Virus record (IMG/VR): IMGVR_UViG_3300035703_000089
Coordinates: 1,168-65,167 of that record
Source: a virus
Taxonomy: Duplodnaviria; Caudoviricetes
Length of the DNA stretch: 64,000 nt
Strand: one strand, 5' to 3'
Part shown: piece after piece, positions 4,754 through 56,195 of the stretch
Position numbering within the stretch: position 1 is the first letter of the stretch
Layout: every line of letters starts with the position of its first letter
The notes under the pieces: model-generated
The model's database searches: none
What the model was told of the DNA's origin: nothing
Seen by the model: only the letters and a program-made list of their open reading frames with translations
Translations under genes and position numbers: made by a program

Positions 4754-4754
4754 T

Positions 4755-7073: not shown

Positions 7074-7076
7074 ATT

Positions 7077-7880: not shown

Positions 7881-7883
7881 AAT

Positions 7884-28800: not shown

Positions 28801-29470
28801 CATAGAATAAATCTGAAGTTGAAATTTCATCCTTATTAAGGATTTTCTCAACATCATCCATGTCACTATTACCAAATGACACAACATTTGCTAATTTATC
28901 TTCAGCTATTAATTCAGCTTCACGTTCTTCAAGAGTTTTAATCTTTGCACTTATTTCAGCAAATTTAGTTCTATCAGATTTATTAGCATTTAAGTTACGT
29001 TTTAATGTAGATATCCTATCAGTTATTTTATTAATTTCATTTTGAAATCTATTAACTTTAGGTAATGTAGCTGGTGAATAATCAACTTCAGTTATTTCAT
29101 CGCCATTAATTCTCTTATATTCCTCAATAAGCTCTTTAGGAATGTTCCAACTTATTTCAGTATAATATGTAGAAATGTTTTTATCTATATAAGCAACAGT
29201 TCCAAATTTATCTGACATAAATTCTTCATTAATCCTATCTACAAGTTTCTGTCCCCAATTATTAGTTTTAGGTTTATCATCTAATTGAGGGTTATTCTTG
29301 TTAACCATTAAAAAGGTTTTATTTGGGGCAGTTTTTAAATAACGAGCAGAAGTCCTTTGATTATATTCAGGCTCAACATATCCAATATTAGGCACATCTG
29401 TAGGGTTAAATCCTACAATCTTAGCAATTCTTTTAATTATTTCTCTTCTATAATGTTGTTCGCAATCCAT
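25835..29470 (-). CDS. large internal virion (cargo/ejection) protein
   Basis: 1211 aa, helical; directly downstream of the virion RNAP as in crAss-like phages. Confidence 0.7.
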   Translation of the reverse strand: MDCEQHYRREIIKRIAKIVGFNPTDVPNIGYVEPEYNQRTSARYLKTAPNKTFLMVNKNNPQLDDKPKTNNWGQKLVDRINEEFMSDKFGTVAYIDKNISTYYTEISWNIPKELIEEYKRINGDEITEVDYSPATLPKVNRFQNEINKITDRISTLKRNLNANKSDRTKFAEISAKIKTLEEREAELIAEDKLANVVSFGNSDMDDVEKILNKDEISTSDLFYANKILHQWNNVVGTIFDANDLERTDGQYSLNVQAVNNIELRAKELSLKYTKVFENTVMNIFLKQGVTPTKEQIFGAKKEIDILQANLRDISMTNDVIFQVTSKIIKEANFKTEQEVIKTVKEVDALMDAVKKTVEYKQKGFDIFAQEDKDGKKTGMMTSRFSDVFYKESGKRRDDAKKTGNWEDFFKWKKENNILFDLRKLFYNEYKELDGGKEFSEEDITAHINDLKLQLGEKGYQEYYDRLQAKFDLYKKDLEAQKEYISSLEADQSAKDAMMEEWLLTNSPFVYAERVYEGKKIKLGEKFINPKGYKYTSEVPRRFTPDGQKTNWHDAKFDVIQDNPALYDYYKYTIDKFNELRDYLPDSAVEDLQYNYIPEIRKNIAELFSDKGIKGGLDGWYDKIISELTTSSPSGISYEERDPETGELIKTLPISMVGKNLKADEKSYDLARITKAFSIMALSFKHKSEIEDSIRLLEQVVNNSKEAVLNPDGTPKMNARNEAISVEGKLKNYRAQYNYAVEALLYNKRRIEEGVSKTKKLLNTEEKAIKADLEKQLAETTDEDAKKEIQAKIDELGSNVVASKVWDKVIQFAQLKGMGWNLFAPVNNTVVGFISNLIHASGNEDYTAGDYLKAYRLMLNSVGKSASLDALETKTAKKINNMMVNFNVVGEIDQAGYNSTAFESGVAKGLQKLSPYELTKRAEYLNQGSTFVAMLLNKKIKDLQGNERSMWEAYDEEGNWKTDEFPPQSEKEKSDFKIKLEQVKKIVHGNYDPSSPVAIKKVTLGRAVTMFRNWVAEGFAARFEGEKEDLLLGRSRKGRFITLKEQGLVQGPMLLLSQMANFLTFGGAFKTSLDSLSEVDKANMRKNAMEMLIYLHLYMLTLILKSLDSDDDDEKKALNYLININLRTQNDMAFFTSPLAFEKITQSSIPAMSIITDAAKLVQATQKTITGDPYYKTGIHKGDLRIRVAAEKNIPFLTQIERLYQGTSKAME

Positions 29471-32400
29471 TTAGCAAGGTTTTAATTCGTATAGATTTTT
29501 AATTTTACTCTTCTTTCTAGTTACAGGCATTAAGTCAGTGTCAGTTGGTTCATTTGTTACAGTACCAAATATATCATCTTCAGTAGTTAAACCTTTAGCA
29601 GGTCTATTGTTATCAGTTTTATCAGATAATACATAAGCATTTTGTGTAGGTCTACTAAATGCAACATATTTTAATTTATTTCTTTCAGAAGCATTACTAT
29701 TTTTATCTATGTTATTTTCATTAACTAATACATTAGTATAAGTGCTTCCTTGAGATTTATGAACTGTTATAGCATATCCGTAGTCTAAATCTTTTTTAAC
29801 TATTAACTGTCCACCTGGCCCATATAAGTTTTCAAGCAATAGGTATTTATTTTTAAATGCAAAATAACTAGGCCATAATTTTCTATTCTGTTTTGCAGCA
29901 TTTAATTTCTGATTAAATATTTGAACAAATTTAACATAATTATTTGTATTTGGAAGCAAAATATTTACACTTAATGGATTTCCTGGTTCATCTATTAAAT
30001 CTAATTCAGCAGATATAACATCTAAACCATCAGAAGTAGTTTTATTTGATGTTTGAACAACTACGTAATCAGCACTATTTTCAATAGCTTCATAAGGGCC
30101 AAGCTGAATTGTATTGTAAGCCATTAATAAATCTCCTTGCAATACAGGCTCTGTAGGATTATCAAATAAACTATTTCTTATTATGCCATTCCAATATTTT
30201 ACATCATCATTAGTCCATGTTAATATCTTAACAAAATCTTTATCTTTTTTATATTCTTCAGAATTATAAAGTTCAATAGCTTTTTTCTCAAATTCTTTAT
30301 ATTTTTCAGTAAAAACAATACCTTCGTTTTTATTATTAATAGATGTAGTGTGGATAAATCTATCTATTAAAGAAGTTAAATTATTTCTTATAGAATCATA
30401 TATTAGCATTAAAGGATTATCACCTTTTTGACGCTCAACTTTAGTTAATTCAGATTTATTAGGCAAAGAAAATACTTGACTTATTTGCTCTCCAACTGGA
30501 GGTAATTGAGCAGCATCACCCATAAATAATATTTTAGTACCTGCTTTTTCAGCTTCTTTAAGCAACAAATTAAACAAGTCTTTGTTTAGCATTGAAGCTT
30601 CATCAATAATAATTAAACCATACCTGTTTATTTCTTTTTCTCCTTTAGGATCAAATTGAGGTCTATTAATATCAAAGTTATCTAAATCAGTGTTAGGCAT
30701 TAAACCTAATAGTTTCTGAATAGTATAACCAGTTTTTTTAGTAGATTTTTGTATAACTTTTTTAGCTTTATGAGTAGGCGCAGATACAGCAACTCTACCT
30801 TTATACTTATCAAGTATAGATTTAACTAAAGTAGTTTTACCTGTTCCTGCAAAACCTGACAATGTATAAAATAAATCATCACCTTTTAACCATTCATTAA
30901 TATTATTAATAGCACTTACTTGTTGATCATTAAAAGTAATTACTCTACCATCAGGTAATTTGTACTGATTAGATTCAACAACTTCTGAAAATGGCGTTGA
31001 AATATTTTTAGTAGGATCTTTAGCTTCAGCAAACTTATTTATTTGTTGAGGATCAACATCTCTGTTAGTATTAAATGCTGATAATAATAAAGCTTTTCTT
31101 TCAGGTTTACCTTTGTAATCAACTACATCAATACCTGTTGAACCATCTTCACTTAATATTACTTTATAAGGTGCTCCAAAGTATTTATAATCAGCAGTTT
31201 TTTGCTCAACTTTAGGTGTAATTTTTACATCTTTAAAATCTTGAGTTGTATAACTTACTATTTTAGTATTAGCTTCTCCATGCGCATATTTAAATATGTC
31301 ATTATTTCTTTGTAAAACACTAACATTATCAGAATAATCATAAGATATTGAGTAAAGATTTATTATTGTTTTATTTTTAGTGTCAACTAAATATTTACCA
31401 GGTTTAAACCCTCCTCTTTTATAATCATATGCACTTCCAGCATCTAAAACATATCTTTCTAATATATAGAATCTTTCAGAGCCTTTAAATATTTCATCTA
31501 AACTATATCCAATTGATTTAGATAATAGTTTTTCAGAAGCAGCATTTTTATGTAAATCATAATTACCATGAGTTGTAACTAGAGTTTTAGTTGGTGCATT
31601 TTTAATTACTTCATTAAATGCATCTTTAACAGTAAAATCTTTTTGTTCAGTAACAGGAGCAGAAGGTTGAGTAGTAGGTTTATTAGTTGCTTTAAAAGTA
31701 TTAGCATATACATCTCTAATAGCTTGTTTAGCAGCTTCTTCAATCTCTTTTCCTTTATATTGTTCTCTTGGCACCCATTTACCTTCCTTTTGTACATTAT
31801 AAGATTCAATATCTCTTGAACCTACGCCAGCAAAATTTTTAGTAAGAGTTGGAGTTTCAATCTCTTTCCAGCCATTATAATCCCATTTATGTTTAGTTGA
31901 ATCATAACCTGTTTTAAGAAACTCAGTATCTTGTGTATACCATTTTTTTGTATCTAAATCAAATACATATACAGGTTTACCCATCTTTATTCCTAATTTA
32001 ACAGCCGTATTAGTTCCACCCATAACTTCAGGTCTTGTAGTAGGACTGATTTCAGCTATAGCAAATACAGCATCAGCATTAGCTACTTGGTAATAATTTC
32101 TTACTTGAAGATTTCCTTGTAAAGTATCAGGATATTTTTCTCCAAGCAGTCTTTCTACCTCTAATCTAGCCTTGTCCATTTGTTCTTTAGTAAGAATAGT
32201 AGCTTTTACACCTGCATTTCTAAGTTTTTGAGATAAATTAGCATTGCCAGCATCTTTATAATGCATATGATTAGTAACACCAAATTCTCTACCTATTAAA
32301 TCCCAAAAAGTATCTCCGCCATAAGCTCCACCAGAATGATTCGTGTAACTTAAAGGATTATTGTCAATAGTGCTTTCAGATAATTCCTCAGCATATTGAG

Positions 32401-35400
32401 GATTAGTTAAGTTAATTAACTCTACTATATTAGATACAGCATTTGATAATACTGAATTTTCTTTAACAGGAAATCCTACTGAAGCTAATAATTTGTTAAC
32501 TAACTCAACAAATCTATCAAGTATTGTTTTATTGCTATCAAATGGAATATCATTAAGTATTTTTTGGAATTCCATATCAGTCATAGCCATTGTAAAGAAT
32601 TCTGAAAACTTATAAGCTCCATAATTCTTGCTTACTTGAATTTCATCAACGTGTTTTTTAGACTCATATGTTTTAACAAATTCATCATATTGAGCTTGCC
32701 ACTTAGGATTACTTTTAATTTTAGCAACTAAAGTATTTTGCATTGTTTTTAATGAATTGCAAATTCTTATTTGCTCATCAGTTAACTCACCTTTATTACC
32801 AGTTTCTAAATACTTTTCATAATCTTTAGCAATATAACCTGTTAAATGATGTACTAACTCGTGTAACAATGTTCTTTCAAAATCTTCGTCAGATCTAGTA
32901 TTAGCTTCATTAATAACAACTGTACCTTCTTTAGTTTTTCTATCATAAGCATAAAATCCTTTAACGTTTGGATCATTACTTATAGCAATGTTAACTTTAG
33001 GACTATTTTTTAAAGCCTTTCTTATTTCAGGCGCTAATGCTTTATGTAGTAAATTTGTAGATGTTTTAGATATAATGTCTAATGCATTATCAATGTTTAC
33101 TATATTATACTTAATAACTCTTCTAGTATCTGATAAATTATTAGCTACACCAGGCATTTCTTTTTCAACAACATCTCTAGTATCAGTTTTAACAGGTTGT
33201 TTAGGTAAAGGCTTATTAGCTTTATTCTCATAAACTAATGAATCAACGTTAAATTCACCTTGTGTATATTCTGAATAACCAAATGAACCTAATGTATCTA
33301 TTAACACATATTTACCATTTCCAGTATATTGATAAAGTTTAAAATCTAAATTAACAAACTCTGGTAATACTTCTAAAAACTCATTAGTTTCAGGCATAAC
33401 TCTACCAACTAGTATATCACTAGCAAGTTTATTTGTTGTTGTAAATTCAGTAATAGTTTTATTAAAATCACGCTTAATTGACTTAGGATCAATTTGTGAA
33501 AGATCATCTTTTAACTTAATAGCTTCACCAGGATTATGTTGTATATATTGTTTAACAAAGTTAGATACTTCATAGTAATTAGATTTTTGATTTAAATCAA
33601 GTATACCTAATAATTCTGGATCCTCAAAATTTAAGTTTCTTAAGTTCTCATCAAAACCTATTGCTCTTAAATATGAATTAGGTATATACTTACCAAACTG
33701 AATAGCTTGTTGTATACCGCCTGATATGTAAAAATAAGTAATCATGTTCTGAGCTAACTCAGTAGTTGCTTCATTACCTATTAAATCAATAAATCCTTGG
33801 TAAACATTTAATTCATCAAAATTCTCTGCAGCTCCTGCATTGTATTTAATTAATGAAGGTTTATTACCAGTTGGATCTATATCAACCATTAAACGTGTTA
33901 TAAATGGATTTTTAGAGGTCTTTTGTAATTCCTTAACTTGTGACGCTAAAGATTTATTACCAGCTCTATCAAAGAATAACTTTTCACGTAATGACCTAAC
34001 ATTTTCATTATCTAAACCTAAACTTTGCTTAGAATAAACAAATGATTTAATACCATTAAATATCTTTAATCTTTTTTCATTAGTCAATACTTTTTTACCA
34101 AGTACTGATTGTAGCTCATTAAATACTTGTGATATCTTACCATAAGGAAATAAATGATACCATAGACTATTGTTTAATCTTAATGCATCATCTGTTGCAA
34201 AACCATTAATAGTATTATCTAATAAGTTTTCAACATTAGCAATGTATTTGTTATCAAATAACTCATTAACCTTTTCTTCCTTGTAGTTAGACTCAATTAA
34301 TGATGGAGATATACCAGCACTATCAGTATTAATAGTTAACTGAATATTACTAATTTCTTTACCTATTTCCCTTGCTTTATTAAACTTAACTAAAGCTCTA
34401 ATCTGTGTTTTATAATAGTTAGGATCTTTTTCACCCATCTCAATACTACTCCACATTTCTTCCTTAGTTAAAGGGTAGTCAGGATCCATTAAAGATGCTG
34501 CAAGAAAAGAGTCTATATTACCTTCAGTAGCATATTTGTTTATTAACTTAGTAATAATAGTTTGTTCAGGGTTAGATATAAACTCATCATTTACAGAGTC
34601 TTGTGACCTAGCCATTTCATTAGCATAGTCAAATATTGCATCTTGTGAAGTTAATGGTGCTATAAATGATTCATCAAATCCTACTGCAGCTAATGCTCTT
34701 TCAGCATCAAATGTATAATTATTAGAGTTAATCTTTTCTAAGATTTGTTCCTTTTCATTATCTACAGCAGCTGACTGATAAGCAGAAACAGTATTGATTT
34801 TAGGTTTATTATTTATACCATCTTTTTCAGATATATTATTAAGTTCAATTGCTTTACCTGATTCGTCACCAAATACTAAGTTAATTTTAGTTTCTATAGG
34901 ATTAAAACCACCTGAAACAGTTCTTAAATATAAATCTTTGCCTTGTGATATTGCAGTAAATACAGAGTCTAATGATTTAACACCAGTACCTGATTTGCCT
35001 GCACGAGCCTTTAAATACTTTTCTTTTTGATAAGTATCATTTAACTTAGTAGCTTTAAATTTAGATTCTAATCTTTTACTTCTATATGAATCAACTTTAT
35101 TAGCTATACTTGGTAGTTCACCAAATCCTAAAGGATTAACTATGTTAGTAAATAAATTAGGATTTGACATTACAGATATATGAACATCTAATAATTCATT
35201 TTGTAATTTCTTTTTAGCTGATGAATCATCTCTTACAAGTTTACCATTTTCAATTTTAGCATTGTACATGTAAGTATATAACTTATCCACGTCAAAGTCA
35301 CTACCCATTTGTTTAGTAAAATCTTTAGGCGCTATAACTAAATCTCCCATATAACTTGGTAAAAACCCTACTACTTCTACGTAACTCATAGAACTATGTA

Positions 35401-38400: not shown

Positions 38401-41400
38401 AATTAACTACCTCATCAAACGGCATATAAGTATCTAATTGTAAATAAGATTTAGTAGGACTAGTAATAAATGATAAAAATTGCTTTAACCTAGATGACAT
38501 TGATTCTTTAGAGTCAATTAAGAATGTTGCCCCATCATCATAATTTACCTTTTCATTATTAGATTCAACATCTTCAACACCTACTACATCTTCAACAGGA
38601 GCTTCAGTAGTTTTACCTTCATTACTTATTTTACCAGGTTGACCAGGTACTTCTTTAACATTAAACAAAGTTAATCTTTGTTCAGATTGTTTAACAAACT
38701 CTTCGTAATTATCTAGTATCTTTTTAAATTCATTAGCATAATTAACTTTACCACGATCCCTAAATGCTTTTTCATACTCAACAAAAGTGTTTTTAAGTTC
38801 ATTATATAATGCAGATTTAGTTTGAGCACCTTTCTCTTTTAAAGATTTAAGTACAAACCCATTCATTATATTAACAACCTGACCTTGCCTAAATGCATTA
38901 AAGCCTGGTATTAATGATGAAGCATCAGCAATTTCTTGTTTAGATTTAGGTGATAATGTTGGAGGAGATAAATCAACAGATCCTGTAAATTCTTTAAATC
39001 CTTGTATATCTTGTTTAGAACCTAGTATATGAATTTGTTCTGGTTCAAATACCACATAACTTTCAACATTTTGAGATTCATCTTCAATGCCTTTAATAGT
39101 ATCAAAATTATCTTTATTTAAATTTTTTACTATTTCAGAATTTACTTTAGAAATTTCTTTTATGTTTTTACTATTTAAAACGACAGAATACTTTTTAAGT
39201 TCTTTTTTTGCTTCTTCTGTAGTCATTATTACTCCAGAATACAAAGCATGTGATTTTATTTTTTCTGCAATAAGCTCTTCTGCATATTTTATATTATCTG
39301 TAAAATATATACCGTTATCTCTTTTAGTAAAATTATTTATAATATTATAGCCTACATGATAAACAATATCTTTTACTTTACTTTCAGGAAATATAGTATC
39401 AAGATATTGAGAGTATGCTTGTAGAGCTTGTTGTTTTTGTTGTGGAGTTACTTTCTTTAATATATCTTTTGTAGCTTTTAGTTTTTCTTCTTTAGTTAAA
39501 AGAGGATTTTCAGATATTTGATCAAGATCTGCAATTTCTAAATAACTATTTATAAATGCATCCTTTTCTTCTGTAGTAGCTATTTGACCATCAATAAACT
39601 TAATTTCTTCTGCAAATCTTTGTTTAGAAATTTCTTCAGGACTTTGGTTTTCACTAAAATAGAAATATCTATTATCAGAAGTTTTTACTAAATCAATATA
39701 AAAAGCATCTGTATTATCTCCAGCTCTAAATAAAACAGTAGATTTATCTTTAAATATATCTTTTAGTTTTTCTGTTAAAGCTAATTTATTTTTAGTTTCT
39801 TTACTATATTCTTTAAACCCTAAAGCTTCGTACACAGCATTAGCTAATTCAGGATTAGATTCAAATAGTTCTGCAACACCTTCTTTAATAGGCTGTTTAG
39901 CTTCAGAACTTAATACTACAGGTGATTCATCAACTAAATCTTTCTCATCATTTAAAGCATCAAAATCTATTTTACCTAATTTTGTAGGATCAGACTTTGT
40001 ACTAGGTGTAGTATAACTAGGTTTTGATGAGTCATTAAGAATATTCTTACCTACCTCAACAGCTTCTTCAAATGTTATTACAGGTTGTACAAATAGAGTG
40101 TAACTACCATCTGGTAACTTAATATCAGATACGTTAGTAGTTGTATTATTTTTAATAAATTCAGTGTAAGTAGATTCTTTATAAGTTACTTTACCTTTGT
40201 TGTCAATATATACTTGTTTAAATGAAGGTTTATTTAAGTGTTTTAAAAATATAGAAACAAATGATCTTTTAATTTGTTTATTAAAATCACTCTTATTAAA
40301 GTTTGCTAAATTACCTACAGACTTAAGAACGCCTCCACCAGTACCATATTGTATTCCGCTACCTAGTACATTTAAAAATAATTTTGTATCATTTTTAACA
40401 TTATTATTTAAGTCAGCTTGATCAAAACTAGCGGTAGCTACGTATAGTTCAAAGAAACTTCTTAAACCATTAGCTGTAAGAATATCTATACCTGTTTGTT
40501 TAAGTATTTCATTACCAATCTTAGCATCTTGTTTAAAGAATGCTTCAGCAGCATTAGTTAATGTATCAGCAATTTCATCACTAATCTTATTATTAAATAC
40601 TGGTATAGCAATAGTTTTACCTGCAACAGGTGTATCAACTACCATGTATACTAAACCAGCTTTAACATCTTTGTTAATAGGCTGATTGCCATTTAAAGGC
40701 TTATCTAATCCTTCATAAAAACTATTATTCTTACCTATTACAAATTTAACATTAGGGTTTTTAATAACTTCAGAAGTTGGTTTATCAACTTTCTTAGTAG
40801 TAAAGTTTAATTTACCTAATGTTTTATTACTTATAAATACTTTCTTAGTTCCTTTAGCTACTATATCTTCACGCAAAGCTTTTAACGCATTACGTTGTAT
40901 TTCAATGTTATTACCCTTAGATGCTACGTTAGATTCTGTAATCCAATCTAAAGTATGTAAATACCCTATAATCTTACCTTCTTTATTAGTAATCTTAATA
41001 GGTACTAAGTAAGGATTATTTTTAGTTTGTTCATAAGTAATAACTGTACCATCTTTTAAAGTTAAATTAAATGTAGTATCAACTGATAAGTTTAACTCAT
41101 CACCTACTTGATATTGTTTACCTGACAATAACATAGGTTCTTGGATTAACTCATTAAGTTGATCTTCAGATATATCTTCTTTTCTAGAATAAGTTACTTC
41201 ACCTAATTTAGCAAACTTTGATATATAAGATTTAGATAAATACGCAATACTCTTTGCTGCATTAATAATTAAATCACCTAATGTAACTGAATTACCTTGT
41301 GGACTTACAGATTCACCTTGATCATTAGTAAACTCTAAATCTTCATTTAATTCATTTTCAAGGGCTTTTCTTTCCTTATAACCAATTTCAGGTACAATCC

Positions 41401-44400
41401 CATCATTAGCATTGACAATAATATTTTCCTTAGTATTTTGAGCATCTTCAATCTTTTCAATTTGTTTATTTAATTCTTCTTTAACACCATACTTTTGTTT
41501 TACTAGATTCTCTAAATCATTAAATCTTTCATTAATAATGTTAATAGAATTTTCTAATACTTCTTTAGGTAAATTAGCATTAGTTAAATCACTAATAGCC
41601 TTTTCCTTTTTATTATTAAGATCTTGTAATTCAGATTCAAGTGTAGCAACTTTAGGTTTACCACCTTCTAAAGATTTTAGTTCTGCATCAATTTTAGATT
41701 GGTTTTTAATATATCCATTAACATCTGAAAGTATTCCTAAAATACCAAAAGGATTATTACTTTTATCTTCTCTAATACTTTTACCATCCCATATTCCAGT
41801 TCTTTCTTTTTCAGCATAAAAAGTTATTTTATCACCAACTTTAAGCTGTGATGCTACTTTATCTGGATTTAATATTTCAGTTCCTTTTTTAGCTAAACCA
41901 GTGCCATCAGATATTTCTTTTAGAGAATCTCTAGTAAAAGTATTTGCTTTTTCTATATCAGCTTTAGTATTAGTAGTAGTAGTTGCACTTTTTAAAGCAG
42001 CTAGTTCTGCATCATATTTAGCGTTAATTCTTCTTTGTATACCTTCTATAAGTTCTGGTTCATAATACTCTCTAAGTTCGTTACCATCTGTAAATCTAAT
42101 TACAGCTGTACTTTTATCAGCTAAAGGAGTAATAGCTCTTATTTTAAAACCATCTAAATTTACTATTTCTTTTAATATAGGTTGTCCTGGAATGCTTGGT
42201 AATTCTTCTTCTACATCAGCTTCAACAGTATCTCCTATTTTAAAATCTGTATAAGATTTAGGAGCTTTATCTAACTCTTCTTGCCTTCTTCTTTCTATAT
42301 CAGCTCTCTTAGCTTCTATGTCTGTAGCAGTTGTTGCAGGTTGTTTATTAGATAATAGTTCTTCTACCGCTTTTACTAATTCAGGATTACTACCATCTTT
42401 TTTAGCTTTGTGATAAGCTTCTGAAACATCAGTAAATATATTTGAATCTTCTAATCCTGCTATTTTTTGAATTTTTTCATACTCATTATATTTTTGTTGT
42501 TTATAATAAGCGTTGTATAATCCATCGGTTGTACTTTTTACATCTTTTAATACATTTTTAGTTTCTATATCAGTAACACCTAATTCAGTTTCTAAATTTT
42601 TTTCTTCAATATTACTTTTAACAAATAAGTTATTCCAGTTAATTTTATCTTTTGAGTTCCACCATTTTTCTTTTTTTGTTTCATTGTCTACCAATAAAAT
42701 ACCTTTTAAATACTGATTAGATCCTTTTCCTCCAACATTAAAAGCTTTTATTGTATAACTATTAGCAACGTCTTGAGTGTTTGTATATAAATTATATAAA
42801 ATATCACCTTTTTTTAAATCAAATTCATTTACTGGTATAAATTTATCTTTACTTCTTTTTTTACCAACGTTTAACTCAGTTTCAGTAGGTTCTATTGTTT
42901 CACCAAATATATCACCTGCAGGTTGACTAGTTACATTAGCTTTTTGTTCTTCAAAATTAGCTTCATTCTCAGCATCCTTGTTAAGTATATCTAGTATATC
43001 TGTAGGTATATTATTGCCAGCAACTTTTAATTCTTCAACTCTACTATCAATAGCTTTTTTATTAGCATTGTAATAAGCTAATTCTTCTTCAGATGCTAAT
43101 TGTTCACCACTGTTAATCTTGTTGGCAAACATGTCAATAATCTTTGCTTGTTCAGTCTTTGCAGCTTGTTCAGCAGCTAATTTAGCTTCATTCTGAATTC
43201 TAGCTAATTCCTCTTCAGCACCTTTTTTAATCTCATCTCTACCTTCAGGTGTAGATAATTTATATAAAGCCTCTTTATTTTGATTAAATGTTCTAGTATC
43301 TAACTCCTGATTTCTAATTAAATTAATTAACTTAGAGTCATTAGGAGATATTAATTGCTTATCAATATCTTCTTTAGAACTATAAACTCCTTCAGATAAT
43401 AATAAGTTATAATTTTCAGCAATTGTTAATTGTAATTGTTTAGCCTTATCTGCAAATTGAGGTATATCTTTAATAGCCTCATATTGCATTTTAAGATTTT
43501 TAAACTGATACAATGTAGGATCTTGTAAGTTTAATGAAAAAGCATCTTCAGCTTTTAAAGATGTTAATTCAGTATTTATATTTTTTAATCTATTTTCAGT
43601 TAATTTTTGATCTATTGCATAATCTAATTCAGTAGCCTTTGCAATATCATCTTTAGTATTATCAGATGCTAATGTATTCCTATAATCTTCAGCAAATTTA
43701 ATTACCTGTTTCCTGTCATTTAAAGTCTTTTGTGACTTAACTCTTTCTTCAGGATCATCCATTGCTTCAGGAGTCATATCTAACATTGATTTAAAATTAT
43801 CAAGGTCAGTTATATTATCCATTAATGTTTTATGAAAAACATCATCAGTAGTTCTATTAAATGATTGTTCATCACCTTTAATTACAGCAGTATGTAATTT
43901 AATAATAGCTTCTTGTTGTTTCTGAAGCTTTTCAATATTTTTATTTTCACTAAATTTACCAACACCTGCAAATATACCTCCGCCTAATCCACCTAAAAAT
44001 GCACTAGTCCAAAATTCACCATCTTTTGCATAATCTAATGTTCTGTCAATCAATGATGATTTATCATCTTCTAATACACCAGATTTAATTAATGCGGCAC
44101 GTTTAGTTTCTTCATTAGTAATAAACTGATAAGCTTCTTCACCAGCCTCTTGCCCCATTGTTGTAAGTACATCAGATAAACCAATTCTTTGATCTTTAAT
44201 CATTTGGCTAAATGACTTATTTAACAACATGTACTGAGGTAAGTCAGTTGCAATATTTGCCCAATTTAATTTATAGTTATTAGCTGCAGCTTCACCAGCT
44301 ATAGCTTTTTTCTCATCTTCAGTAAATAATTGATTAGTGTTAGGATTAATCTTGCCTTCTAATTTCCTATAAGTATCTTCAAATGTTTGACCACCTTCCA

Positions 44401-45100
44401 TGATGTTTTCCATTTGACGAGATATTACAGCACCTGTAATACCTTTTAAGCCAGCGCTTAAATTTTTAGTACCACTAATAGCTTCAATACCTCTAATAAG
44501 TTTAGCTCCACCTAAAGTTTTACCTAGTTTAGATAAACCCATTACAGCTCCTTGTGCAGGAACCATCATACTTACTGTTGTTAATATAGACGGAATATTT
44601 TCACCCCACCATCCATAAGATAATGGACTAAACCCTTCAGATTCTTTAGTTCTGTAAACAGGTAGTTTAAGTTTATCTTCAGCAGATTGTATTGCATCTG
44701 CAATGTCATTATGAAAACCTTCTTTAGCTCTTTCAGTAAAGTCAGTATAATTTCTGTAATCTAGTAAATATGAAGCGTCTTTAATTATATCTAATCCAGT
44801 TTGTGTAACTGCATTAGCTAATCCTGAACCTATTTTAGCAAGACTTGACTGTTCCTGAGCTCTTTGATATTGAAATGGTAAATTTTCATCACCATAATTT
44901 TCAAAATATTGTTGAGTTAAAGGTTTATCATATTTAGATTCACCAAATAAATTAAATTGTTCTTTTGTTGAATAACCTGGTTGAGGTGTTATAACTTGTC
45001 CAACATAGCTAAAATCTTCTCCAGCTTTAACTCTTTTTGAAAATTTATCAATAGCATCTTCTTGATTATTATTTTTTTTAGGTAATTCTTGTTTAGCCAT
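29471..45100 (-). CDS. giant multidomain virion RNA polymerase (crAss-type two-barrel RNAP) with ART-like, zincin, SLOG and SF1B helicase domains
   Basis: GFRIPTQ and catalytic GSDFDVDK (about 35285-35299); HELVH (about 32850); HSGGAYGGD...GGT; GFAGTGKTT, DEASM, GDAAQLPPV and HKSQGST. Confidence 0.92.
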   Translation of the reverse strand: MAKQELPKKNNNQEDAIDKFSKRVKAGEDFSYVGQVITPQPGYSTKEQFNLFGESKYDKPLTQQYFENYGDENLPFQYQRAQEQSSLAKIGSGLANAVTQTGLDIIKDASYLLDYRNYTDFTERAKEGFHNDIADAIQSAEDKLKLPVYRTKESEGFSPLSYGWWGENIPSILTTVSMMVPAQGAVMGLSKLGKTLGGAKLIRGIEAISGTKNLSAGLKGITGAVISRQMENIMEGGQTFEDTYRKLEGKINPNTNQLFTEDEKKAIAGEAAANNYKLNWANIATDLPQYMLLNKSFSQMIKDQRIGLSDVLTTMGQEAGEEAYQFITNEETKRAALIKSGVLEDDKSSLIDRTLDYAKDGEFWTSAFLGGLGGGIFAGVGKFSENKNIEKLQKQQEAIIKLHTAVIKGDEQSFNRTTDDVFHKTLMDNITDLDNFKSMLDMTPEAMDDPEERVKSQKTLNDRKQVIKFAEDYRNTLASDNTKDDIAKATELDYAIDQKLTENRLKNINTELTSLKAEDAFSLNLQDPTLYQFKNLKMQYEAIKDIPQFADKAKQLQLTIAENYNLLLSEGVYSSKEDIDKQLISPNDSKLINLIRNQELDTRTFNQNKEALYKLSTPEGRDEIKKGAEEELARIQNEAKLAAEQAAKTEQAKIIDMFANKINSGEQLASEEELAYYNANKKAIDSRVEELKVAGNNIPTDILDILNKDAENEANFEEQKANVTSQPAGDIFGETIEPTETELNVGKKRSKDKFIPVNEFDLKKGDILYNLYTNTQDVANSYTIKAFNVGGKGSNQYLKGILLVDNETKKEKWWNSKDKINWNNLFVKSNIEEKNLETELGVTDIETKNVLKDVKSTTDGLYNAYYKQQKYNEYEKIQKIAGLEDSNIFTDVSEAYHKAKKDGSNPELVKAVEELLSNKQPATTATDIEAKRADIERRRQEELDKAPKSYTDFKIGDTVEADVEEELPSIPGQPILKEIVNLDGFKIRAITPLADKSTAVIRFTDGNELREYYEPELIEGIQRRINAKYDAELAALKSATTTTNTKADIEKANTFTRDSLKEISDGTGLAKKGTEILNPDKVASQLKVGDKITFYAEKERTGIWDGKSIREDKSNNPFGILGILSDVNGYIKNQSKIDAELKSLEGGKPKVATLESELQDLNNKKEKAISDLTNANLPKEVLENSINIINERFNDLENLVKQKYGVKEELNKQIEKIEDAQNTKENIIVNANDGIVPEIGYKERKALENELNEDLEFTNDQGESVSPQGNSVTLGDLIINAAKSIAYLSKSYISKFAKLGEVTYSRKEDISEDQLNELIQEPMLLSGKQYQVGDELNLSVDTTFNLTLKDGTVITYEQTKNNPYLVPIKITNKEGKIIGYLHTLDWITESNVASKGNNIEIQRNALKALREDIVAKGTKKVFISNKTLGKLNFTTKKVDKPTSEVIKNPNVKFVIGKNNSFYEGLDKPLNGNQPINKDVKAGLVYMVVDTPVAGKTIAIPVFNNKISDEIADTLTNAAEAFFKQDAKIGNEILKQTGIDILTANGLRSFFELYVATASFDQADLNNNVKNDTKLFLNVLGSGIQYGTGGGVLKSVGNLANFNKSDFNKQIKRSFVSIFLKHLNKPSFKQVYIDNKGKVTYKESTYTEFIKNNTTTNVSDIKLPDGSYTLFVQPVITFEEAVEVGKNILNDSSKPSYTTPSTKSDPTKLGKIDFDALNDEKDLVDESPVVLSSEAKQPIKEGVAELFESNPELANAVYEALGFKEYSKETKNKLALTEKLKDIFKDKSTVLFRAGDNTDAFYIDLVKTSDNRYFYFSENQSPEEISKQRFAEEIKFIDGQIATTEEKDAFINSYLEIADLDQISENPLLTKEEKLKATKDILKKVTPQQKQQALQAYSQYLDTIFPESKVKDIVYHVGYNIINNFTKRDNGIYFTDNIKYAEELIAEKIKSHALYSGVIMTTEEAKKELKKYSVVLNSKNIKEISKVNSEIVKNLNKDNFDTIKGIEDESQNVESYVVFEPEQIHILGSKQDIQGFKEFTGSVDLSPPTLSPKSKQEIADASSLIPGFNAFRQGQVVNIMNGFVLKSLKEKGAQTKSALYNELKNTFVEYEKAFRDRGKVNYANEFKKILDNYEEFVKQSEQRLTLFNVKEVPGQPGKISNEGKTTEAPVEDVVGVEDVESNNEKVNYDDGATFLIDSKESMSSRLKQFLSFITSPTKSYLQLDTYMPFDEVVNYLSGQLAGMEASYADISARLGEIAKVKPWVKEVKNELDNASDQIKNEFVQWATKHYANFKIAEIFGSIKTGGISIKVMDSDQNAIIKTIQSKWLANLKTTDLVKETTPGNLIIDNSKRKELVDELNSIDKNDLNAVKAWLAKIGIEVSMDTLEAIKNNPTSPYAKQFTDKNGIFFNIVANLSKETLSADDTFDTNNPLTNNSGIKKLAAIEALYSDAHFSNSFKNGEGKSVFAYSNNKYFINQFYRLKRNVGNYLNNLMSTSFASTSSWGKQLKNKDSYFSQVFDYFYLDTLKYKKEGVTLDHMSSREHELTKLALFWNQNNGRQDEKISHFLFPTMSDKSTMTGITALRHNVQVLFNEDGSIELSESTKDALYDVVEAEYKRILQSYNIKNDIDGYNPNMFYFFEELNNNKALWEETTITDENGKEITRKTLKPLNQINQNIIKEFVADHALKLIEAKKQHWTDLGLTTKDSFKFADKTYITAARNNLREANKNMSDVITYAAADYVINYVIANANSFQLFVGDPALFFKKDAEKTWINVGKRLAAEIAPGLELADSKNNKFTVAFAKDASGALSVSMNFPQLLKMLDGLSVEEFNKLSKKEKEALDSYPYYDIEGTDAQELTILAEHLYVLEKSGKISPEKVKELLEREEKGTLNKYDFVDIFQPIKPVYVNTQLEPSMDVNRKIYIKSSSFPLVKGLTPEMDKLRDAMIKNGVDRLAFKTATKVGGPKEFIDIFNQDGTIKSNLVFDNKMLLDRSGFRIQQDVPFDAEKDSVNRGSQEAKLLFANILDMEGFNYNGETINGKQLQDEYNALNKQLFANGKRALLKEITDDSGNLNLVKVQKLLIEEAKGRGWPQNDIDALRLVKVNEIIDQFAMPLWASTSANKIEALLSSLVDNKVRKQKLRGNSFVLGSEEGFRGKSKDIIYTKSYNPETGLLPMRIDKKTGKVLPAQILITNKLKDQEGNPVNLQRFMTRDGYLDLSKIDPKLLTGFGFRIPTQLHSSMSYVEVVGFLPSYMGDLVIAPKDFTKQMGSDFDVDKLYTYMYNAKIENGKLVRDDSSAKKKLQNELLDVHISVMSNPNLFTNIVNPLGFGELPSIANKVDSYRSKRLESKFKATKLNDTYQKEKYLKARAGKSGTGVKSLDSVFTAISQGKDLYLRTVSGGFNPIETKINLVFGDESGKAIELNNISEKDGINNKPKINTVSAYQSAAVDNEKEQILEKINSNNYTFDAERALAAVGFDESFIAPLTSQDAIFDYANEMARSQDSVNDEFISNPEQTIITKLINKYATEGNIDSFLAASLMDPDYPLTKEEMWSSIEMGEKDPNYYKTQIRALVKFNKAREIGKEISNIQLTINTDSAGISPSLIESNYKEEKVNELFDNKYIANVENLLDNTINGFATDDALRLNNSLWYHLFPYGKISQVFNELQSVLGKKVLTNEKRLKIFNGIKSFVYSKQSLGLDNENVRSLREKLFFDRAGNKSLASQVKELQKTSKNPFITRLMVDIDPTGNKPSLIKYNAGAAENFDELNVYQGFIDLIGNEATTELAQNMITYFYISGGIQQAIQFGKYIPNSYLRAIGFDENLRNLNFEDPELLGILDLNQKSNYYEVSNFVKQYIQHNPGEAIKLKDDLSQIDPKSIKRDFNKTITEFTTTNKLASDILVGRVMPETNEFLEVLPEFVNLDFKLYQYTGNGKYVLIDTLGSFGYSEYTQGEFNVDSLVYENKANKPLPKQPVKTDTRDVVEKEMPGVANNLSDTRRVIKYNIVNIDNALDIISKTSTNLLHKALAPEIRKALKNSPKVNIAISNDPNVKGFYAYDRKTKEGTVVINEANTRSDEDFERTLLHELVHHLTGYIAKDYEKYLETGNKGELTDEQIRICNSLKTMQNTLVAKIKSNPKWQAQYDEFVKTYESKKHVDEIQVSKNYGAYKFSEFFTMAMTDMEFQKILNDIPFDSNKTILDRFVELVNKLLASVGFPVKENSVLSNAVSNIVELINLTNPQYAEELSESTIDNNPLSYTNHSGGAYGGDTFWDLIGREFGVTNHMHYKDAGNANLSQKLRNAGVKATILTKEQMDKARLEVERLLGEKYPDTLQGNLQVRNYYQVANADAVFAIAEISPTTRPEVMGGTNTAVKLGIKMGKPVYVFDLDTKKWYTQDTEFLKTGYDSTKHKWDYNGWKEIETPTLTKNFAGVGSRDIESYNVQKEGKWVPREQYKGKEIEEAAKQAIRDVYANTFKATNKPTTQPSAPVTEQKDFTVKDAFNEVIKNAPTKTLVTTHGNYDLHKNAASEKLLSKSIGYSLDEIFKGSERFYILERYVLDAGSAYDYKRGGFKPGKYLVDTKNKTIINLYSISYDYSDNVSVLQRNNDIFKYAHGEANTKIVSYTTQDFKDVKITPKVEQKTADYKYFGAPYKVILSEDGSTGIDVVDYKGKPERKALLLSAFNTNRDVDPQQINKFAEAKDPTKNISTPFSEVVESNQYKLPDGRVITFNDQQVSAINNINEWLKGDDLFYTLSGFAGTGKTTLVKSILDKYKGRVAVSAPTHKAKKVIQKSTKKTGYTIQKLLGLMPNTDLDNFDINRPQFDPKGEKEINRYGLIIIDEASMLNKDLFNLLLKEAEKAGTKILFMGDAAQLPPVGEQISQVFSLPNKSELTKVERQKGDNPLMLIYDSIRNNLTSLIDRFIHTTSINNKNEGIVFTEKYKEFEKKAIELYNSEEYKKDKDFVKILTWTNDDVKYWNGIIRNSLFDNPTEPVLQGDLLMAYNTIQLGPYEAIENSADYVVVQTSNKTTSDGLDVISAELDLIDEPGNPLSVNILLPNTNNYVKFVQIFNQKLNAAKQNRKLWPSYFAFKNKYLLLENLYGPGGQLIVKKDLDYGYAITVHKSQGSTYTNVLVNENNIDKNSNASERNKLKYVAFSRPTQNAYVLSDKTDNNRPAKGLTTEDDIFGTVTNEPTDTDLMPVTRKKSKIKNLYELKPC

Positions 45101-55758: not shown

Positions 55759-56195
55759 TAATTATAAAAATCTAATTGTTTATTATTTACAGCATCAGCT
55801 ATTAATCTTGATGCAGTTCTACAAGGTTTAAAACTATAATACCTTTTACCTTTTACACCGCAATGAACTTTGCTCCATTTCCATTTATAGCCGTATTTAG
55901 AGCCATGATAAACAATCATACCTGTTTCTTTACTAAGTTTATAATTAACCTTCCAGTTCCTTTTATTATCCTCAGTAAATGTATTTTGAAACTTATGTAT
56001 AAAAAGTTTACCTAATTTAAATGGCAATGTTAAAGTTTCACTGCTGTATACTATTTTATTCCTTACCTCTAAATTAAACTCTTTTAATATTTTAGAGTAA
56101 GTCTGATAATCTACGTAACTTCTATTCTTTTTTATTGAAGTTTCTTTATAATATTTGTAAAAATCTCTAAGTCCTATATCCTTAGTATAACCCAT
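55758..56195 (-). CDS. IHF/HU-like protein of the crAss tail module
   Basis: LPFKLGKLFI...YSFKPCR; basic; located between ring genes. Confidence 0.65.
   Translation of the reverse strand: MGYTKDIGLRDFYKYYKETSIKKNRSYVDYQTYSKILKEFNLEVRNKIVYSSETLTLPFKLGKLFIHKFQNTFTEDNKRNWKVNYKLSKETGMIVYHGSKYGYKWKWSKVHCGVKGKRYYSFKPCRTASRLIADAVNNKQLDFYN

What the first reader, a model, noticed from the sequence alone, without database searches (positions are those of the whole stretch)
29471..45100. 5209-aa polyvalent virion RNA polymerase fused to a Dda/RecD helicase, SLOG, zincin and ART-like domains
Seen in one ORF, N to C: helical cargo region, ART-like module (about 38990-39900), RNAP core (DFDVD at about 35290), zincin HELVH (about 32850), SLOG/DprA-like domain (about 31700-32350) and an SF1B helicase with the expected motifs (about 29630-30950). 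Known: crAss virion RNAPs are large and may carry zincins. Inference: an injected toolkit coupling early transcription with DNA translocation and counter-defence. An RNAP-helicase fusion could pull in the genome or clear protein roadblocks.
Basis: partly seen in the sequence, partly recalled or inferred. Interest (0 to 1): 0.72.

Follow-up and report, generated by a model that had tools for sequence, protein, structure and literature searches.

The report
Giant crAss-like polymerase-helicase virion protein
One 5,209-residue gene of an uncultured crAss-like phage strings together a virion RNA polymerase, a DNA helicase and three smaller enzyme modules; the gene is real, but polymerase-helicase fusions of this kind are widespread in public data and seem to have gone undiscussed.

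Summary
Window 29471-45100 (-) is one uninterrupted 5,209-aa ORF.
- gp67-like N-terminus
- ART-PolyVal-like module
- phi14:2 gp66-type RNA polymerase, with DFDVD in register with the catalytic DFDID of gp66
- HELVH zincin
- SLOG domain closest to the circularly permuted YpsA structure 3imk
- intact Dda/RecD-like SF1B helicase

Synteny with phi14:2 and a crAss muzzle protein place the phage among crAss-like phages. Assembly chimerism is very unlikely.

Of 119 listed giant proteins sharing the helicase, 113 also carry the RNAP core. Of the 150 best RNAP-core relatives, 29 carry the helicase. RefSeq crAss phage cr118_1 encodes a 4,946-aa RNAP-helicase protein labelled "exonuclease V". The ART and SLOG modules are swappable cassettes. 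None of these 269 listed relatives (a few appear in both lists) combines ART, SLOG and helicase.

I found no paper text describing the fusion. It matters because phi14:2 gp66 transcribes single-stranded DNA well and double-stranded DNA poorly in vitro, so a tethered helicase could supply the template. Against this, phi14:2 has no such helicase.

Verdict: a variant of the known crAss polyvalent virion RNAP that I did not find described in print. Interest is moderate.

The parts
29471..45100 (-). Single ORF of 5,209 aa (587 kDa): polyvalent virion RNAP protein (P0001)
43940..44944 (-). N-terminal region similar to phi14:2 gp67 virion structural protein (aa 53-387)
   Evidence: blastp E 1.1e-5, 22.8% identity over 386 columns. 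Weak. No Pfam, PHROG or PDB hit for aa 1-1400.
38966..39433 (-). ART-superfamily module, ART-PolyVal-like (aa 1890-2045). H1915 and D2000 are at least 90% conserved in the alignment; Y1932 matches the GxYF consensus.
   Evidence: Own PF18760 E 3.8e-4, 21.7 bits, below the 31.2 cut-off. 30 of 40 aligned relatives hit PF18760, best 7.8e-14. Transitive evidence via P0005 and P0069. AF2 pLDDT 87.3. Top fold matches are ART folds.
33170..36904 (-). gp66-type crAss virion RNA polymerase core (aa 2733-3977), with catalytic DFDVD at 35285-35299
   Evidence: PDB 6vr4_A E 1.8e-25. gp66 blastp 7e-31 and 1e-9. DFDVD is in register with gp66 DFDID, 46% identity over 72 aa. phrog_16227 3.2e-93.
32816..33043 (-). 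Zincin-like metallopeptidase module with HELVH (32849-32863)
   Evidence: phrog_87 6.6e-5. SprT-like 0.0019 and M76 0.0054 are both below cut-off. HExxH is kept in 87 of 104 relatives that cover the motif.
31661..32380 (-). SLOG-superfamily domain, closest to the circularly permuted YpsA family
   Evidence: phrog_768 3.4e-10. AF2 pLDDT 88.8. VIA 3imk_A Z 12.2, rmsd 3.6, 150 aligned; DprA, YpsA and LOG at Z 5.4-6.6. PF12694 reaches only 13.8 bits against a 26.2 cut-off.
30956..31648 (-). Linker of about 230 aa with no assignable family. Its last 60 aa or so are shared with 10 of 119 helicase-bearing giants.
29621..30958 (-). Dda/RecD-like SF1B helicase with all checked motifs intact (aa 4715-5160)
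   Evidence: AAA_30 93.8 bits, AAA_19 73.7, UvrD_C_2 30.2, all above cut-offs. phrog_325 4.2e-87. PDB 9kwf_B 7e-25, 8jx6 6.6e-20, T4 Dda 3upu 1.4e-14, RecD2 3e1s 1e-11. Motifs.
25835..29470 (-). Next gene, starting directly after the stop codon: 1,211-aa gp65-like RNAP-associated protein without HExxH
   Evidence: blastp to phi14:2 gp65 4e-12 and to cr118_1 gp15 3e-7. No HExxH.
45100..47235 (-). Upstream 711-aa gene overlapping the giant ORF's start by one base. Function unknown.
   Evidence: no family

Best explanation
This is the central gene of the 'transcription block' of an uncultured aquatic crAss-like phage. It is a polyvalent virion cargo protein.

The phi14:2 gp67-like and gp66-like (RNA polymerase) proteins are fused into one chain. 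Four further modules are added: an ART-PolyVal-like ADP-ribosyltransferase, a zincin peptidase, a cpYpsA-like SLOG domain and a C-terminal Dda-like SF1B helicase.

Shown:
- the ORF
- the homologies, intact catalytic motifs and folds
- the crAss context
- the recurrence of the fusion

Inferred:
- The protein is packed in the capsid, extruded largely unfolded ahead of or with the DNA, and refolds in the cell. It is probably cut by its own zincin.
- Its polymerase makes the early transcripts.
- The tethered 5'-3' helicase opens the entering duplex, or strips proteins from it. This gives a polymerase that prefers single strands a template.
- The ART modifies a host target.
- The SLOG domain binds or destroys NAD/ADP-ribose-derived defence signals. 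Its closest full-length relative carries NADAR in the same slot.
For: ORF and motifs.

RNAP:
- 6vr4 E 1.8e-25
- DFDVD in register with gp66 DFDID

Helicase:
- Pfam hits above cut-offs and phrog_325 4e-87
- T4 Dda 1.4e-14

SLOG fold: Z 12.2 to 3imk.

ART:
- 30 of 40 relatives hit PF18760
- ART folds fill the top structural matches

Zincin: HExxH kept in 87 of 104 relatives.

crAss identity:
- muzzle protein PF25731, 8e-123
- 12 of 48 window ORFs match phi14:2. Of these, the replication-block genes and the gp65/gp66/gp71-73 block run in phi14:2's order; the metallophosphatase match lies elsewhere in phi14:2.

Virion status of homologues:
- phi14:2 g065-g067 annotations are based on MS/MS
- PhicrAss001 RNAP-associated cargo proteins were detected by mass spectrometry (PMC10172136)

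Fusion of the three proteins into one polyprotein, with probable cleavage and a zincin role, is proposed in 10.1101/2020.03.07.982082 (passage).

Template argument, same preprint:
- gp66 did not transcribe double-stranded M13 and only weakly transcribed native phi14:2 DNA
- it transcribed single-stranded and denatured DNA very efficiently (passages)
- its eukaryotic relative QDE-1 needs the QDE-3 helicase and RPA

Recurrence:
- 113 of 119
- 29 of 150
- cr118_1 gp14
- in both this phage and cr118_1 the helicase ends the RNAP chain just before the gp65-like gene

One helicase copy per genome, fused or free.

NADAR occupies the SLOG slot in P0002. SLOG-SF1 helicase fusions in phages are noted in PMC9503650 (passage).
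Against: - phi14:2, the one phage whose polymerase was tested, has no match to the Dda-like family in its whole 100,418-bp record. The helicase therefore cannot be generally required for virion RNAP function.
- 121 of the 150 best RNAP relatives lack the helicase in the same chain. Among them, 66 have tails of at least 1,400 aa after DFDxD.
- In Rudgehvirus jaberico the single homologue is a free 482-aa gene beside UDG and PolB in the replication block. This suggests a replication or repair role.
- No data show that this protein, or its C-terminal third, is in virions, nor that it is cleaved.
- The ART and zincin modules score below Pfam gathering cut-offs.
- Enzymatic activity of every module is inferred.
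Confidence: 0.55

Rival explanations
1. The helicase is simply the phage's one replication/recombination SF1 helicase, whose gene has moved to the end of the late 'transcription block' and lost its own start. It acts on replicating DNA after release by the zincin, or as part of newly made protein. It has no role in the injected complex or in early transcription.
For: - Free-standing homologues are far more numerous: 4,614 at E<=0.001 among 8,000 scored, against 437 among 1,202 giants.
- In Rudgehvirus the homologue sits beside UDG and PolB.
- Yutin et al. 2021 list 'SF1 helicase' among replication-block genes (PMC7886860, figure-legend passage).
- Each genome examined has one copy only.
- phi14:2 transcribes early genes without one.
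- On the RNAP tree, helicase presence is scattered almost at random: 23 changes against a shuffled mean of 26.
Against: - The same position, at the end of the RNAP chain and directly before the gp65-like gene, recurs in distant lineages: this aquatic phage and gut cr118_1.
- In 3 of 119 proteins the helicase lies between RNAP segments, and in 10 of 119 it is at the N-terminus. Accidental read-through cannot easily produce either arrangement.
- A replication enzyme made only with late virion genes would arrive after it is needed.
Confidence: 0.22
2. SLOG plus helicase form a counter-defence unit. The SLOG domain senses or degrades NAD/ADP-ribose-derived signals. The helicase strips host nucleases, CRISPR R-loops or other roadblocks from the incoming genome. 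This is independent of the polymerase's need for a template.
For: - SLOG, linker and helicase occur in this order in other viral contigs (L018, L019, L020) and in P0006 and P0068.
- NADAR replaces SLOG in P0002.
- Iyer et al. 2022 propose that SLOG regulates fused nucleic-acid enzymes (PMC9503650, passage).
- ART and SLOG are exchangeable cassettes between close relatives, as expected under arms-race selection.
Against: - Of the 29 helicase-bearing relatives among the 150, 25 have neither SLOG nor ART. The helicase link is therefore to the polymerase rather than to SLOG.
- A relative 84-89% identical in the flanks lacks SLOG in frame but keeps the flanks.
- No defence target is identified.
Confidence: 0.15
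3. The ORF is an artefact: a chimeric assembly, or a frame kept open by sequencing error.
For: The record is a linear metagenomic contig estimated 68% complete. Logan contigs of the probable source run break at about 30556-30581, 40129-40140 and 44163-44244.
Against: - A separate assembly of the probable source run gives a 9,585-bp contig identical to window 30556-40140. It spans every internal junction from the helicase to ART. The breaks overlap or fall inside domains, not between them.
- P0002, from a 92.6-kb contig, is colinear from the N-terminus to the helicase at 28-62% identity.
- The order zincin-SLOG-helicase recurs in P0006 and P0068, and N3-ART-mid recurs in P0069.
- The helicase aligns in full to Dda-like proteins across the 30556-30581 break.
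Confidence: 0.02

Closest known systems
Cellulophaga phage phi14:2 gp66 virion RNA polymerase (PDB 6VR4) with its neighbours gp65 and gp67
   Same: - The RNAP core is homologous (E 1.8e-25), and the DFDxD motif is in register.
- The N-terminus is gp67-like and the next gene is gp65-like.
- The block occupies the same place in the genome, between the replication genes and the muzzle and tail genes.
   Different: - gp67 and gp66 are separate proteins of 1,797 and 2,180 aa. Here they form one chain.
- The phi14:2 zincin motif is in gp65 at residue 245. Here it follows the RNAP in the same chain, and the gp65-like gene has no HExxH.
- phi14:2 has no Dda-like helicase anywhere in its record. tblastn of its bases 8001-100000 found no match to the SLOG or ART modules.
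cr118_1 gp14 (YP_010110531, RefSeq 'exonuclease V'; Crassvirales, Suoliviridae, Besingivirus coli)
   Same: It is a 4,946-aa single protein with DFDID at residue 3209 and a Dda-like helicase at 4434-4925. A gp65-like gene and then the diverging replication block follow. It holds the only helicase copy in that genome.
   Different: - It is very distant: 30% identity in the RNAP core and 33% in the helicase.
- Its HExxH lies upstream of the RNAP, at residue 1734.
- blastp detects no SLOG or ART module.
- It comes from the human gut rather than an aquatic habitat.
Polyvalent proteins of phages and conjugative elements (Iyer et al. 2017, PMC5512222), including N4-like virion RNAPs fused to zincins and ARTs
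   Same: Both are giant virion-associated proteins that combine unrelated enzymes. A zincin peptidase acts as hub and an H-Y-D type ART is the commonest modifier. Delivery with the DNA is proposed, with possible autoprocessing (passages).
   Different: The RNAP there is the single-subunit N4 type, not the two-barrel crAss type. The helicases described there are SWI2/SNF2, and in a few actinomycete plasmids UvrD-like. The terms crAss, SF1, SLOG, Dda and RecD have no occurrences in that text.
T4 Dda / RecD2 / Pif1 (SF1B helicases)
   Same: The sequence is homologous and all checked motifs are intact.
   Different: Those are free proteins of about 430-570 aa. Here the domain is the C-terminal 10% of a 587-kDa protein encoded among virion genes.
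cpYpsA / 'putative molybdenum carrier' SLOG family (PDB 3imk, Pfam PF12694)
   Same: This is the best structural match (Z 12.2, 150 of 158 residues aligned). The Gly-rich SGGAxGxD loop and the GGT motif are invariant across 16 homologues.
   Different: Sequence identity is 14%. The Pfam score of 13.8 bits is below the 26.2 cut-off. The module is about 240 aa with inserts and is embedded in a polyprotein.

Membership tests
crAss-like virion RNA polymerase (phi14:2 gp66 type) | Sequence homology to gp66 across the catalytic region | tested here: met
   - 6vr4_A E 1.8e-25: aa 2733-3287 against chain 870-1394
- blastp 7e-31, plus 1e-9 extending to gp66 residue 2143
- phrog_16227 3.2e-93
crAss-like virion RNA polymerase (phi14:2 gp66 type) | DFDxD metal-binding motif at the homologous position | tested here: met
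   DFDVD 3268-3272 aligns with gp66 DFDID 1361-1365 without gaps, at 46% identity over 72 aa.
crAss-like virion RNA polymerase (phi14:2 gp66 type) | Located in the transcription block next to gp65-like and gp67-like sequences of a crAss-like genome | tested here: met
   (muzzle protein 8e-123)
crAss-like virion RNA polymerase (phi14:2 gp66 type) | Packaged in virions and responsible for rifampicin-resistant early transcription | not testable with these tools
   Known only for homologues (10.1101/2020.03.07.982082; PMC10172136).
crAss-like virion RNA polymerase (phi14:2 gp66 type) | Two double-psi beta-barrels in one chain | not tested
   No structure of the RNAP part was predicted. The alignment covers gp66 residues 856-2143 only.
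SF1B helicase (Dda/RecD2/Pif1-like) | Pfam SF1 helicase core and C-terminal domain above gathering score | tested here: met
   - AAA_30: 93.8 bits, cut-off 27
- AAA_19: 73.7, cut-off 25.1
- PIF1: 37.3, cut-off 25.9
- UvrD_C_2: 30.2, cut-off 27.4

SF1B helicase (Dda/RecD2/Pif1-like) | Walker A and motifs II, III and VI intact | tested here: met
   GFAGTGKT, IIIDEAS, GDAAQL and TVHKSQG are all present. The motif names are recalled from knowledge of SF1 helicases.
SF1B helicase (Dda/RecD2/Pif1-like) | 5'-3' translocation on single-stranded DNA | not testable with these tools
   Inferred from the nearest solved relatives Dda, RecD2 and Pif1.
SLOG superfamily | Rossmann-like SLOG fold | tested here: met
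   The model has pLDDT 88.8. 3imk_A scores Z 12.2. Seven of the next nine rows are DprA, YpsA, TM1055, MCP, ShosA or TT1887, at Z 5.4-6.6.
SLOG superfamily | Conserved glycine-rich nucleotide loop | tested here: met
   S16 G17 G18 A19 D23 and G121 G122 T123 are invariant in 16 sequences.
cpYpsA family (Pfam PF12694) | Score at or above Pfam gathering cut-off | tested here: not met
   13.8 bits against 26.2. I file the domain under the superfamily only.
ART-PolyVal (Pfam PF18760) | Score at or above Pfam gathering cut-off | tested here: not met
   The module itself scores 21.7 bits against 31.2 (E 3.8e-4). 30 of 40 aligned homologues match at E<=0.001. P0005 and P0069 pass the cut-off at the homologous place.
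ART superfamily | ART fold | tested here: met
   The model has pLDDT 87.3. Foldseek's top rows are PARP4, PARP13, MbcT, PARP1 and tankyrase (best E 3.7e-3). VIA gives ParT and VPA0770 at Z 7.6 and PARP2 at 7.4. Most of the 50 rows are ADP-ribosyltransferase, PARP or RES-type proteins. All Z values are under 8, which the tool flags as middling.
ART superfamily | Catalytic H-Y-D/E triad | tested here: inconclusive
   H1915 and D2000 are at least 90% conserved, and Y1932 fits the GxYF consensus. Assigning these residues to strands 1, 2 and 5 follows Iyer 2017. I did not check it on the model.
Zincin-like metallopeptidase of polyvalent proteins | HExxH in a homologous, conserved module | tested here: met
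   HELVH is present, and 87 of 104 relatives that cover the motif keep HExxH. phrog_87 scores 6.6e-5.
Zincin-like metallopeptidase of polyvalent proteins | Match to a curated zincin family above cut-off, or a zincin fold | tested here: inconclusive
   SprT-like scores 18.5 bits against 25.6, and M76 scores 17.0 against 25.2. No structure was predicted.
Polyvalent protein (Iyer et al. 2017) | Several unrelated enzymatic domains in one very large phage protein encoded with virion genes | tested here: met
   Five enzyme modules lie in one ORF, in a block of co-directional genes that includes the muzzle, tail-tubular and gp65-like genes.

The most novel reading that the evidence does not exclude
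The recurrent covalent tethering of a Dda-like 5'-3' helicase to the crAss virion polymerase answers an open question about the injected enzyme. That enzyme transcribes single-stranded DNA well and duplex DNA poorly, so how does it get a template in vivo? In about one fifth of lineages the machine may carry its own unwinding motor. It would form a self-contained 'unwind-and-transcribe' complex on the entering genome end, mirroring the QDE-1 / QDE-3 helicase / RPA arrangement of its eukaryotic relatives. Phages without the fusion would borrow a host activity or a free phage helicase.
Probability: 0.25. Interest if true: 0.75.

Novelty: new variant of a known kind. Interest (0 to 1): 0.45.

Why it matters
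crAss-like phages dominate the human gut virome and are common in water. Their injected polymerase is a relative of the eukaryotic RNA-interference polymerases. How it engages a double-stranded genome is unknown, because in vitro it prefers single strands.

A family of natural polymerase-helicase fusions offers a ready experimental handle: hundreds of clusters, including one in RefSeq mislabelled 'exonuclease V'. The RNAP-to-helicase fragment can be expressed and tested for whether ATP and the helicase make duplex DNA a template.

The locus also shows in-frame swapping of ART, SLOG and NADAR cassettes between near-identical phages. That pattern is expected of counter-defence cargo and is useful for finding new anti-defence modules.

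For annotation, these giant genes should not be named after their helicase tail.

Tried and rejected
**Similarity and family searches that gave nothing**
- megablast of the whole gene against 50,697 phage records: no match.
- tblastn of the C-terminal 1,609 aa: 0 of 2,538 matching records cover at least 80%. The same test with the RNAP-C plus helicase part of cr118_1 found only the two cr118_1 records among 2,353. Divergence is too high for tblastn to census the fusion in deposited genomes.
- Pfam, PHROGs and PDB sequence searches of aa 1-1400 found nothing. The whole N-terminal 2,700 aa has no PDB hit at E<=0.1.
- The weak coiled-coil, SesA, Rep_OBD and poly(A)-polymerase hits are all far below cut-offs, and I disregarded them.
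- The ESM Atlas gave no usable hit for the linker at aa 4485-4715.

**Structure searches**
- Foldseek found no match at E<=0.001 for either model. The best rows were 3imk at 2e-3 and PARP4 at 3.7e-3. The VIA search was needed to confirm SLOG.

**Trees**
- On a midpoint-rooted FastTree of 240 helicase domains, free and fused forms switch 9 times.
- On the RNAP tree there are 23 changes for 28 helicase-bearing tips, against a shuffled mean of 26.0 and minimum of 22. This is too close to random to infer a history.
- Truncated proteins and split gene calls, such as the 370-aa fragment P0121, probably add noise. I draw no order of events from either tree.

**Sequencing runs**
- Parts without cover in the laid runs are not interpreted.

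**Tools and papers not available**
- Earlier findings of this scan were not open.
- Yutin et al. 2018 and the journal version of Drobysheva et al. are not held.
- I made no complex prediction.
Full report
**The observation.** Window 29471-45100 on the minus strand is one ATG-started frame of 5,209 codons with no stop under table 11. The predicted protein is 587 kDa. The only other ORF of at least 100 aa inside the span is a 145-aa antisense frame at 37800-38237. The DNA is 27-30% G+C, so a 15.6-kb open frame is not chance.

- DFDVD at 35285-35299
- HELVH at 32849-32863
- a glycine-rich SGGAYGGD loop at aa 4256-4263
- helicase Walker A (GFAGTGKT), motif II (IIIDEAS), motif III (GDAAQL) and motif VI (TVHKSQG)

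**RNA polymerase.** Residues 2733-3287 match the solved phi14:2 gp66 polymerase (6vr4_A, E 1.8e-25). Pairwise blastp extends the homology to residue 3977. DFDVD aligns without gaps to the gp66 catalytic DFDID, within 72 residues of 46% identity.

**Helicase.** Residues 4715-5160 pass the Pfam cut-offs for AAA_30, AAA_19, PIF1 and UvrD_C_2. They match the PHROG 'Dda-like helicase' at 4e-87. They also hit T4 Dda (1.4e-14) and RecD2 (1e-11) among solved structures.

**SLOG.**
- The module at 31661-32380 matches a PHROG annotated as DprA-like (3e-10).
- A 16-sequence alignment has the SGGA..D and GGT motifs invariant.
- Its AlphaFold model (pLDDT 88.8) is closest to 3imk, a structure deposited as a 'putative molybdenum carrier protein'. 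From memory, not from a call, I take 3imk to belong to the family Pfam now calls circularly permuted YpsA.
- The match is Z 12.2, rmsd 3.6, 150 residues aligned. DprA, YpsA, LOG-like and ShosA structures follow at Z 5.4-6.6.
- The Pfam cpYpsA score itself is below the cut-off. I therefore place the domain in the SLOG superfamily only.

**ART.**
- The module at 38966-39433 scores 21.7 bits on ART-PolyVal, below the 31.2 cut-off.
- 30 of 40 aligned homologues match that family, with a best E of 7.8e-14. The 40 rows were the window, L002, L009 and 37 of the 80 loci kept.
- Two relatives pass the cut-off at exactly the homologous stretch.
- The model (pLDDT 87.3) finds mainly ART-superfamily proteins: PARPs, ParT, RES-type toxins and diphtheria-type toxins. 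Scores are modest: Foldseek best 3.7e-3, VIA best Z 7.6.

**Zincin.** This rests on HELVH, a PHROG metalloprotease hit (6.6e-5) and sub-threshold SprT and M76 hits. HExxH is conserved in 87 of 104 relatives that cover the motif.

**N-terminus and linker.** Residues 53-387 weakly resemble phi14:2 gp67 (E 1e-5). The rest of the first 1,700 residues and the 230-aa linker before the helicase have no assignable family.

**Context.** The window lies in a linear IMG/VR virus record of 65,167 bases, estimated 68% complete. Twelve of the 48 ORFs of at least 100 aa match phi14:2:
- the ATP-grasp, ligase, amidotransferase and amidoligase cluster
- DnaB and primase
- a metallophosphatase
- gp65, gp66, gp71, the P22 gp4-like tail tubular protein and IHF

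All of these except the metallophosphatase, whose phi14:2 match lies elsewhere in that genome, run in phi14:2's order. The 1,528-aa gene at 50453-55039 is a crassvirus muzzle protein (PF25731, 8e-123). This is therefore a crAss-like phage.

In phi14:2 the transcription order is g067, g066 (RNAP), g065. Here the gp67-like and gp66-like parts are one chain. A 1,211-aa gp65-like gene follows, starting right after the stop codon. The phi14:2 zincin motif is in gp65. Here it follows the polymerase, and the gp65-like gene has none. [quoted passage not shown]

**Chimerism.**
- Logan's separate assembly of the probable source run yields a 9,585-bp contig identical to window 30556-40140. It crosses every junction from the helicase to ART.
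- The three contig breaks overlap, or lie inside domains.
- Independent contigs show the same order. P0002, from a 92.6-kb contig, is colinear from the N-terminus to the helicase. P0006 and P0068 have zincin-SLOG-helicase. P0069 has the ART module in the same slot.
- I rate an artefact at about 2%.

**How common the fusion is.**
- A search restricted to proteins of 2,864-9,116 aa found 437 with the helicase at E<=0.001 among 1,202 scored.
- Of the 119 listed, 113 also match the RNAP segment that holds DFDVD.
- The helicase is usually C-terminal. It is N-terminal in 10 of the 119, and it lies between RNAP segments in 3.
- An unbiased HMMER search with the RNAP core found 2,462 representative proteins at E<=0.001. 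Of the best 150, 29 carry the helicase, 5 the SLOG module, 5 the ART module and none all three.
- Of the 120 helicase-free proteins that have the DFDxD motif, 66 have at least 1,400 residues after it. Many therefore truly lack the helicase in that chain.
- The RefSeq genome cr118_1 (Suoliviridae) encodes a 4,946-aa protein named 'exonuclease V'. It has DFDID at residue 3209 and the helicase at 4434-4925, and a gp65-like gene follows.
- Each genome checked has a single copy. It is fused in cr118_1 and in the contig of L018. It is a free 482-aa gene beside UDG and PolB in Rudgehvirus jaberico. There is none in phi14:2.
- Free-standing homologues are very numerous: 4,614 at E<=0.001 among 8,000 scored.

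**Cassette exchange.**
- The SLOG module is 71-85% identical to modules in giant ORFs whose RNAP core is only 25-39% identical (L002, L007-L009).
- Of 16 SLOG-bearing loci, 10 have RNAP core within 3 kb upstream. Three have the helicase downstream. Three have an ART module downstream: L009, and L002 and L010, which are the same contig.
- In an estuary run, a relative 84-89% identical in the flanks replaces 775 nt holding the SLOG module with 100 nt, in frame.
- Reservoir-run relatives lack a 135-codon insert upstream of the ART core.
- The ART slot is unalignable in the estuary relative.
- The closest full-length relative, P0002, carries a NADAR domain (59.5 bits) in the slot between zincin and helicase.

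**Mechanism.** The homologies and motifs are shown. The rest is inference from homologues.
- *Delivery.* PhicrAss001 virions contain three RNAP-associated cargo proteins that must partly unfold to pass the tail and then refold (PMC10172136, passages).
- *Early transcription.* phi14:2 gp66 makes the rifampicin-resistant early transcripts (preprint passages).
- *Template preference.* gp66 did not transcribe duplex M13 and only weakly transcribed native phage DNA. It transcribed single-stranded and denatured DNA very efficiently. Its relative QDE-1 needs the QDE-3 helicase and RPA.
- *Proposed helicase role.* A tethered 5'-3' helicase is therefore a plausible template-provider or roadblock remover.
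- *Other modules.* The ART, and the SLOG domain (NADAR in P0002), fit the host-modifying and ADP-ribose-signal-processing roles proposed for polyvalent proteins and viral SLOG domains (PMC5512222 and PMC9503650, passages).

Against a general requirement for the helicase:
- phi14:2 has no such helicase.
- 121 of 150 relatives lack it in the same chain.
- The free form sits among replication genes.

**Literature.** Seven full-text searches found no paper whose text describes a crAss RNAP-SF1 helicase fusion.
- Yutin et al. 2021 call the transcription-block proteins 'large, multidomain' and list SF1 helicase among conserved genes (passages). Their Fig. 3 draws the recognised domains, but figures are not held and supplements are closed. 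The fusion may be depicted there.
- Iyer et al. 2017 do not mention crAss, SF1, SLOG, Dda or RecD.
- Bayfield et al. 2023 do not mention a helicase.
- The 2018 Yutin paper and the journal version of Drobysheva et al. could not be read.

**Verdict.** The gene is a member of a widespread helicase-bearing variant of the crAss polyvalent virion RNAP that I did not find discussed in print. None of the 269 listed relatives (the 119 and the 150, a few in both lists) combines ART, SLOG and helicase as this protein does. Such shuffling is the norm for this protein class. Interest is moderate.

Noticed in passing
window 31598-32372, compared with run X2: A relative 84-89% identical in the flanks replaces 775 nt holding the SLOG module with 100 nt, in frame. 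The SLOG domain is therefore a present/absent cassette among close relatives.
   Followed up: partly
window 39416-39841 and 39024-39833: Reservoir-run relatives (X5) skip 422-424 nt with 17-19 nt in between, a net 135 codons in frame, just upstream of the ART core. In the estuary relative (X2) the whole ART slot is unalignable. This is a hot spot of module exchange.
   Followed up: partly
L002:10001-10693, L007:3001-3744, L008:3001-3690, L009:3001-3705: SLOG modules 71-85% identical to the window's sit in giant ORFs whose RNAP core is only 25-39% identical. This points to recent horizontal transfer of the cassette between distant polyvalent proteins.
   Followed up: partly
P0002 residues 3495-3611: The closest full-length relative has a NADAR domain (PF08719, 59.5 bits) between zincin and helicase, exactly where this protein has SLOG. 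The same slot holds alternative ADP-ribose-related modules.
   Followed up: partly
window 50453-55039 (-): A 1,528-aa crassvirus muzzle protein (PF25731 8e-123, PF25729 2.7e-10). The P22 gp4-like tail tubular and IHF homologues follow at 55039-56195.
   Followed up: yes
window 5615-11082 (+): A cluster of four genes: an ATP-grasp (RimK-like), a COOH-NH2 ligase, a glutamine amidotransferase and an amidoligase. It is syntenic with phi14:2 g038-g041. It is a conserved peptide or amide-bond modification system of unknown target.
   Followed up: no
NC_055872.1 16381-31221 (L004:2702-17542): RefSeq names the 4,946-aa RNAP-helicase protein of cr118_1 'exonuclease V', and GenBank MT774379 names it 'DNA helicase'. 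Both names describe only its C-terminal tenth.
   Followed up: yes
P0029, P0030, P0033: In three giant relatives the helicase lies between the segments homologous to RNAP aa 2701-3200 and aa 3201-3700. That is, it is inserted within the polymerase region rather than appended.
   Followed up: no
PDB 9k3a_B: A chain of the cyanophage A4 pre-ejectosome appears among the ART-fold matches (Z 6.0). This hints that ART-like domains in ejected proteins have now been seen structurally in another podophage.
   Followed up: no
window 37800-38237 (+): A 145-aa TTG-started antisense ORF lies inside the giant gene. It is probably spurious.
   Followed up: no
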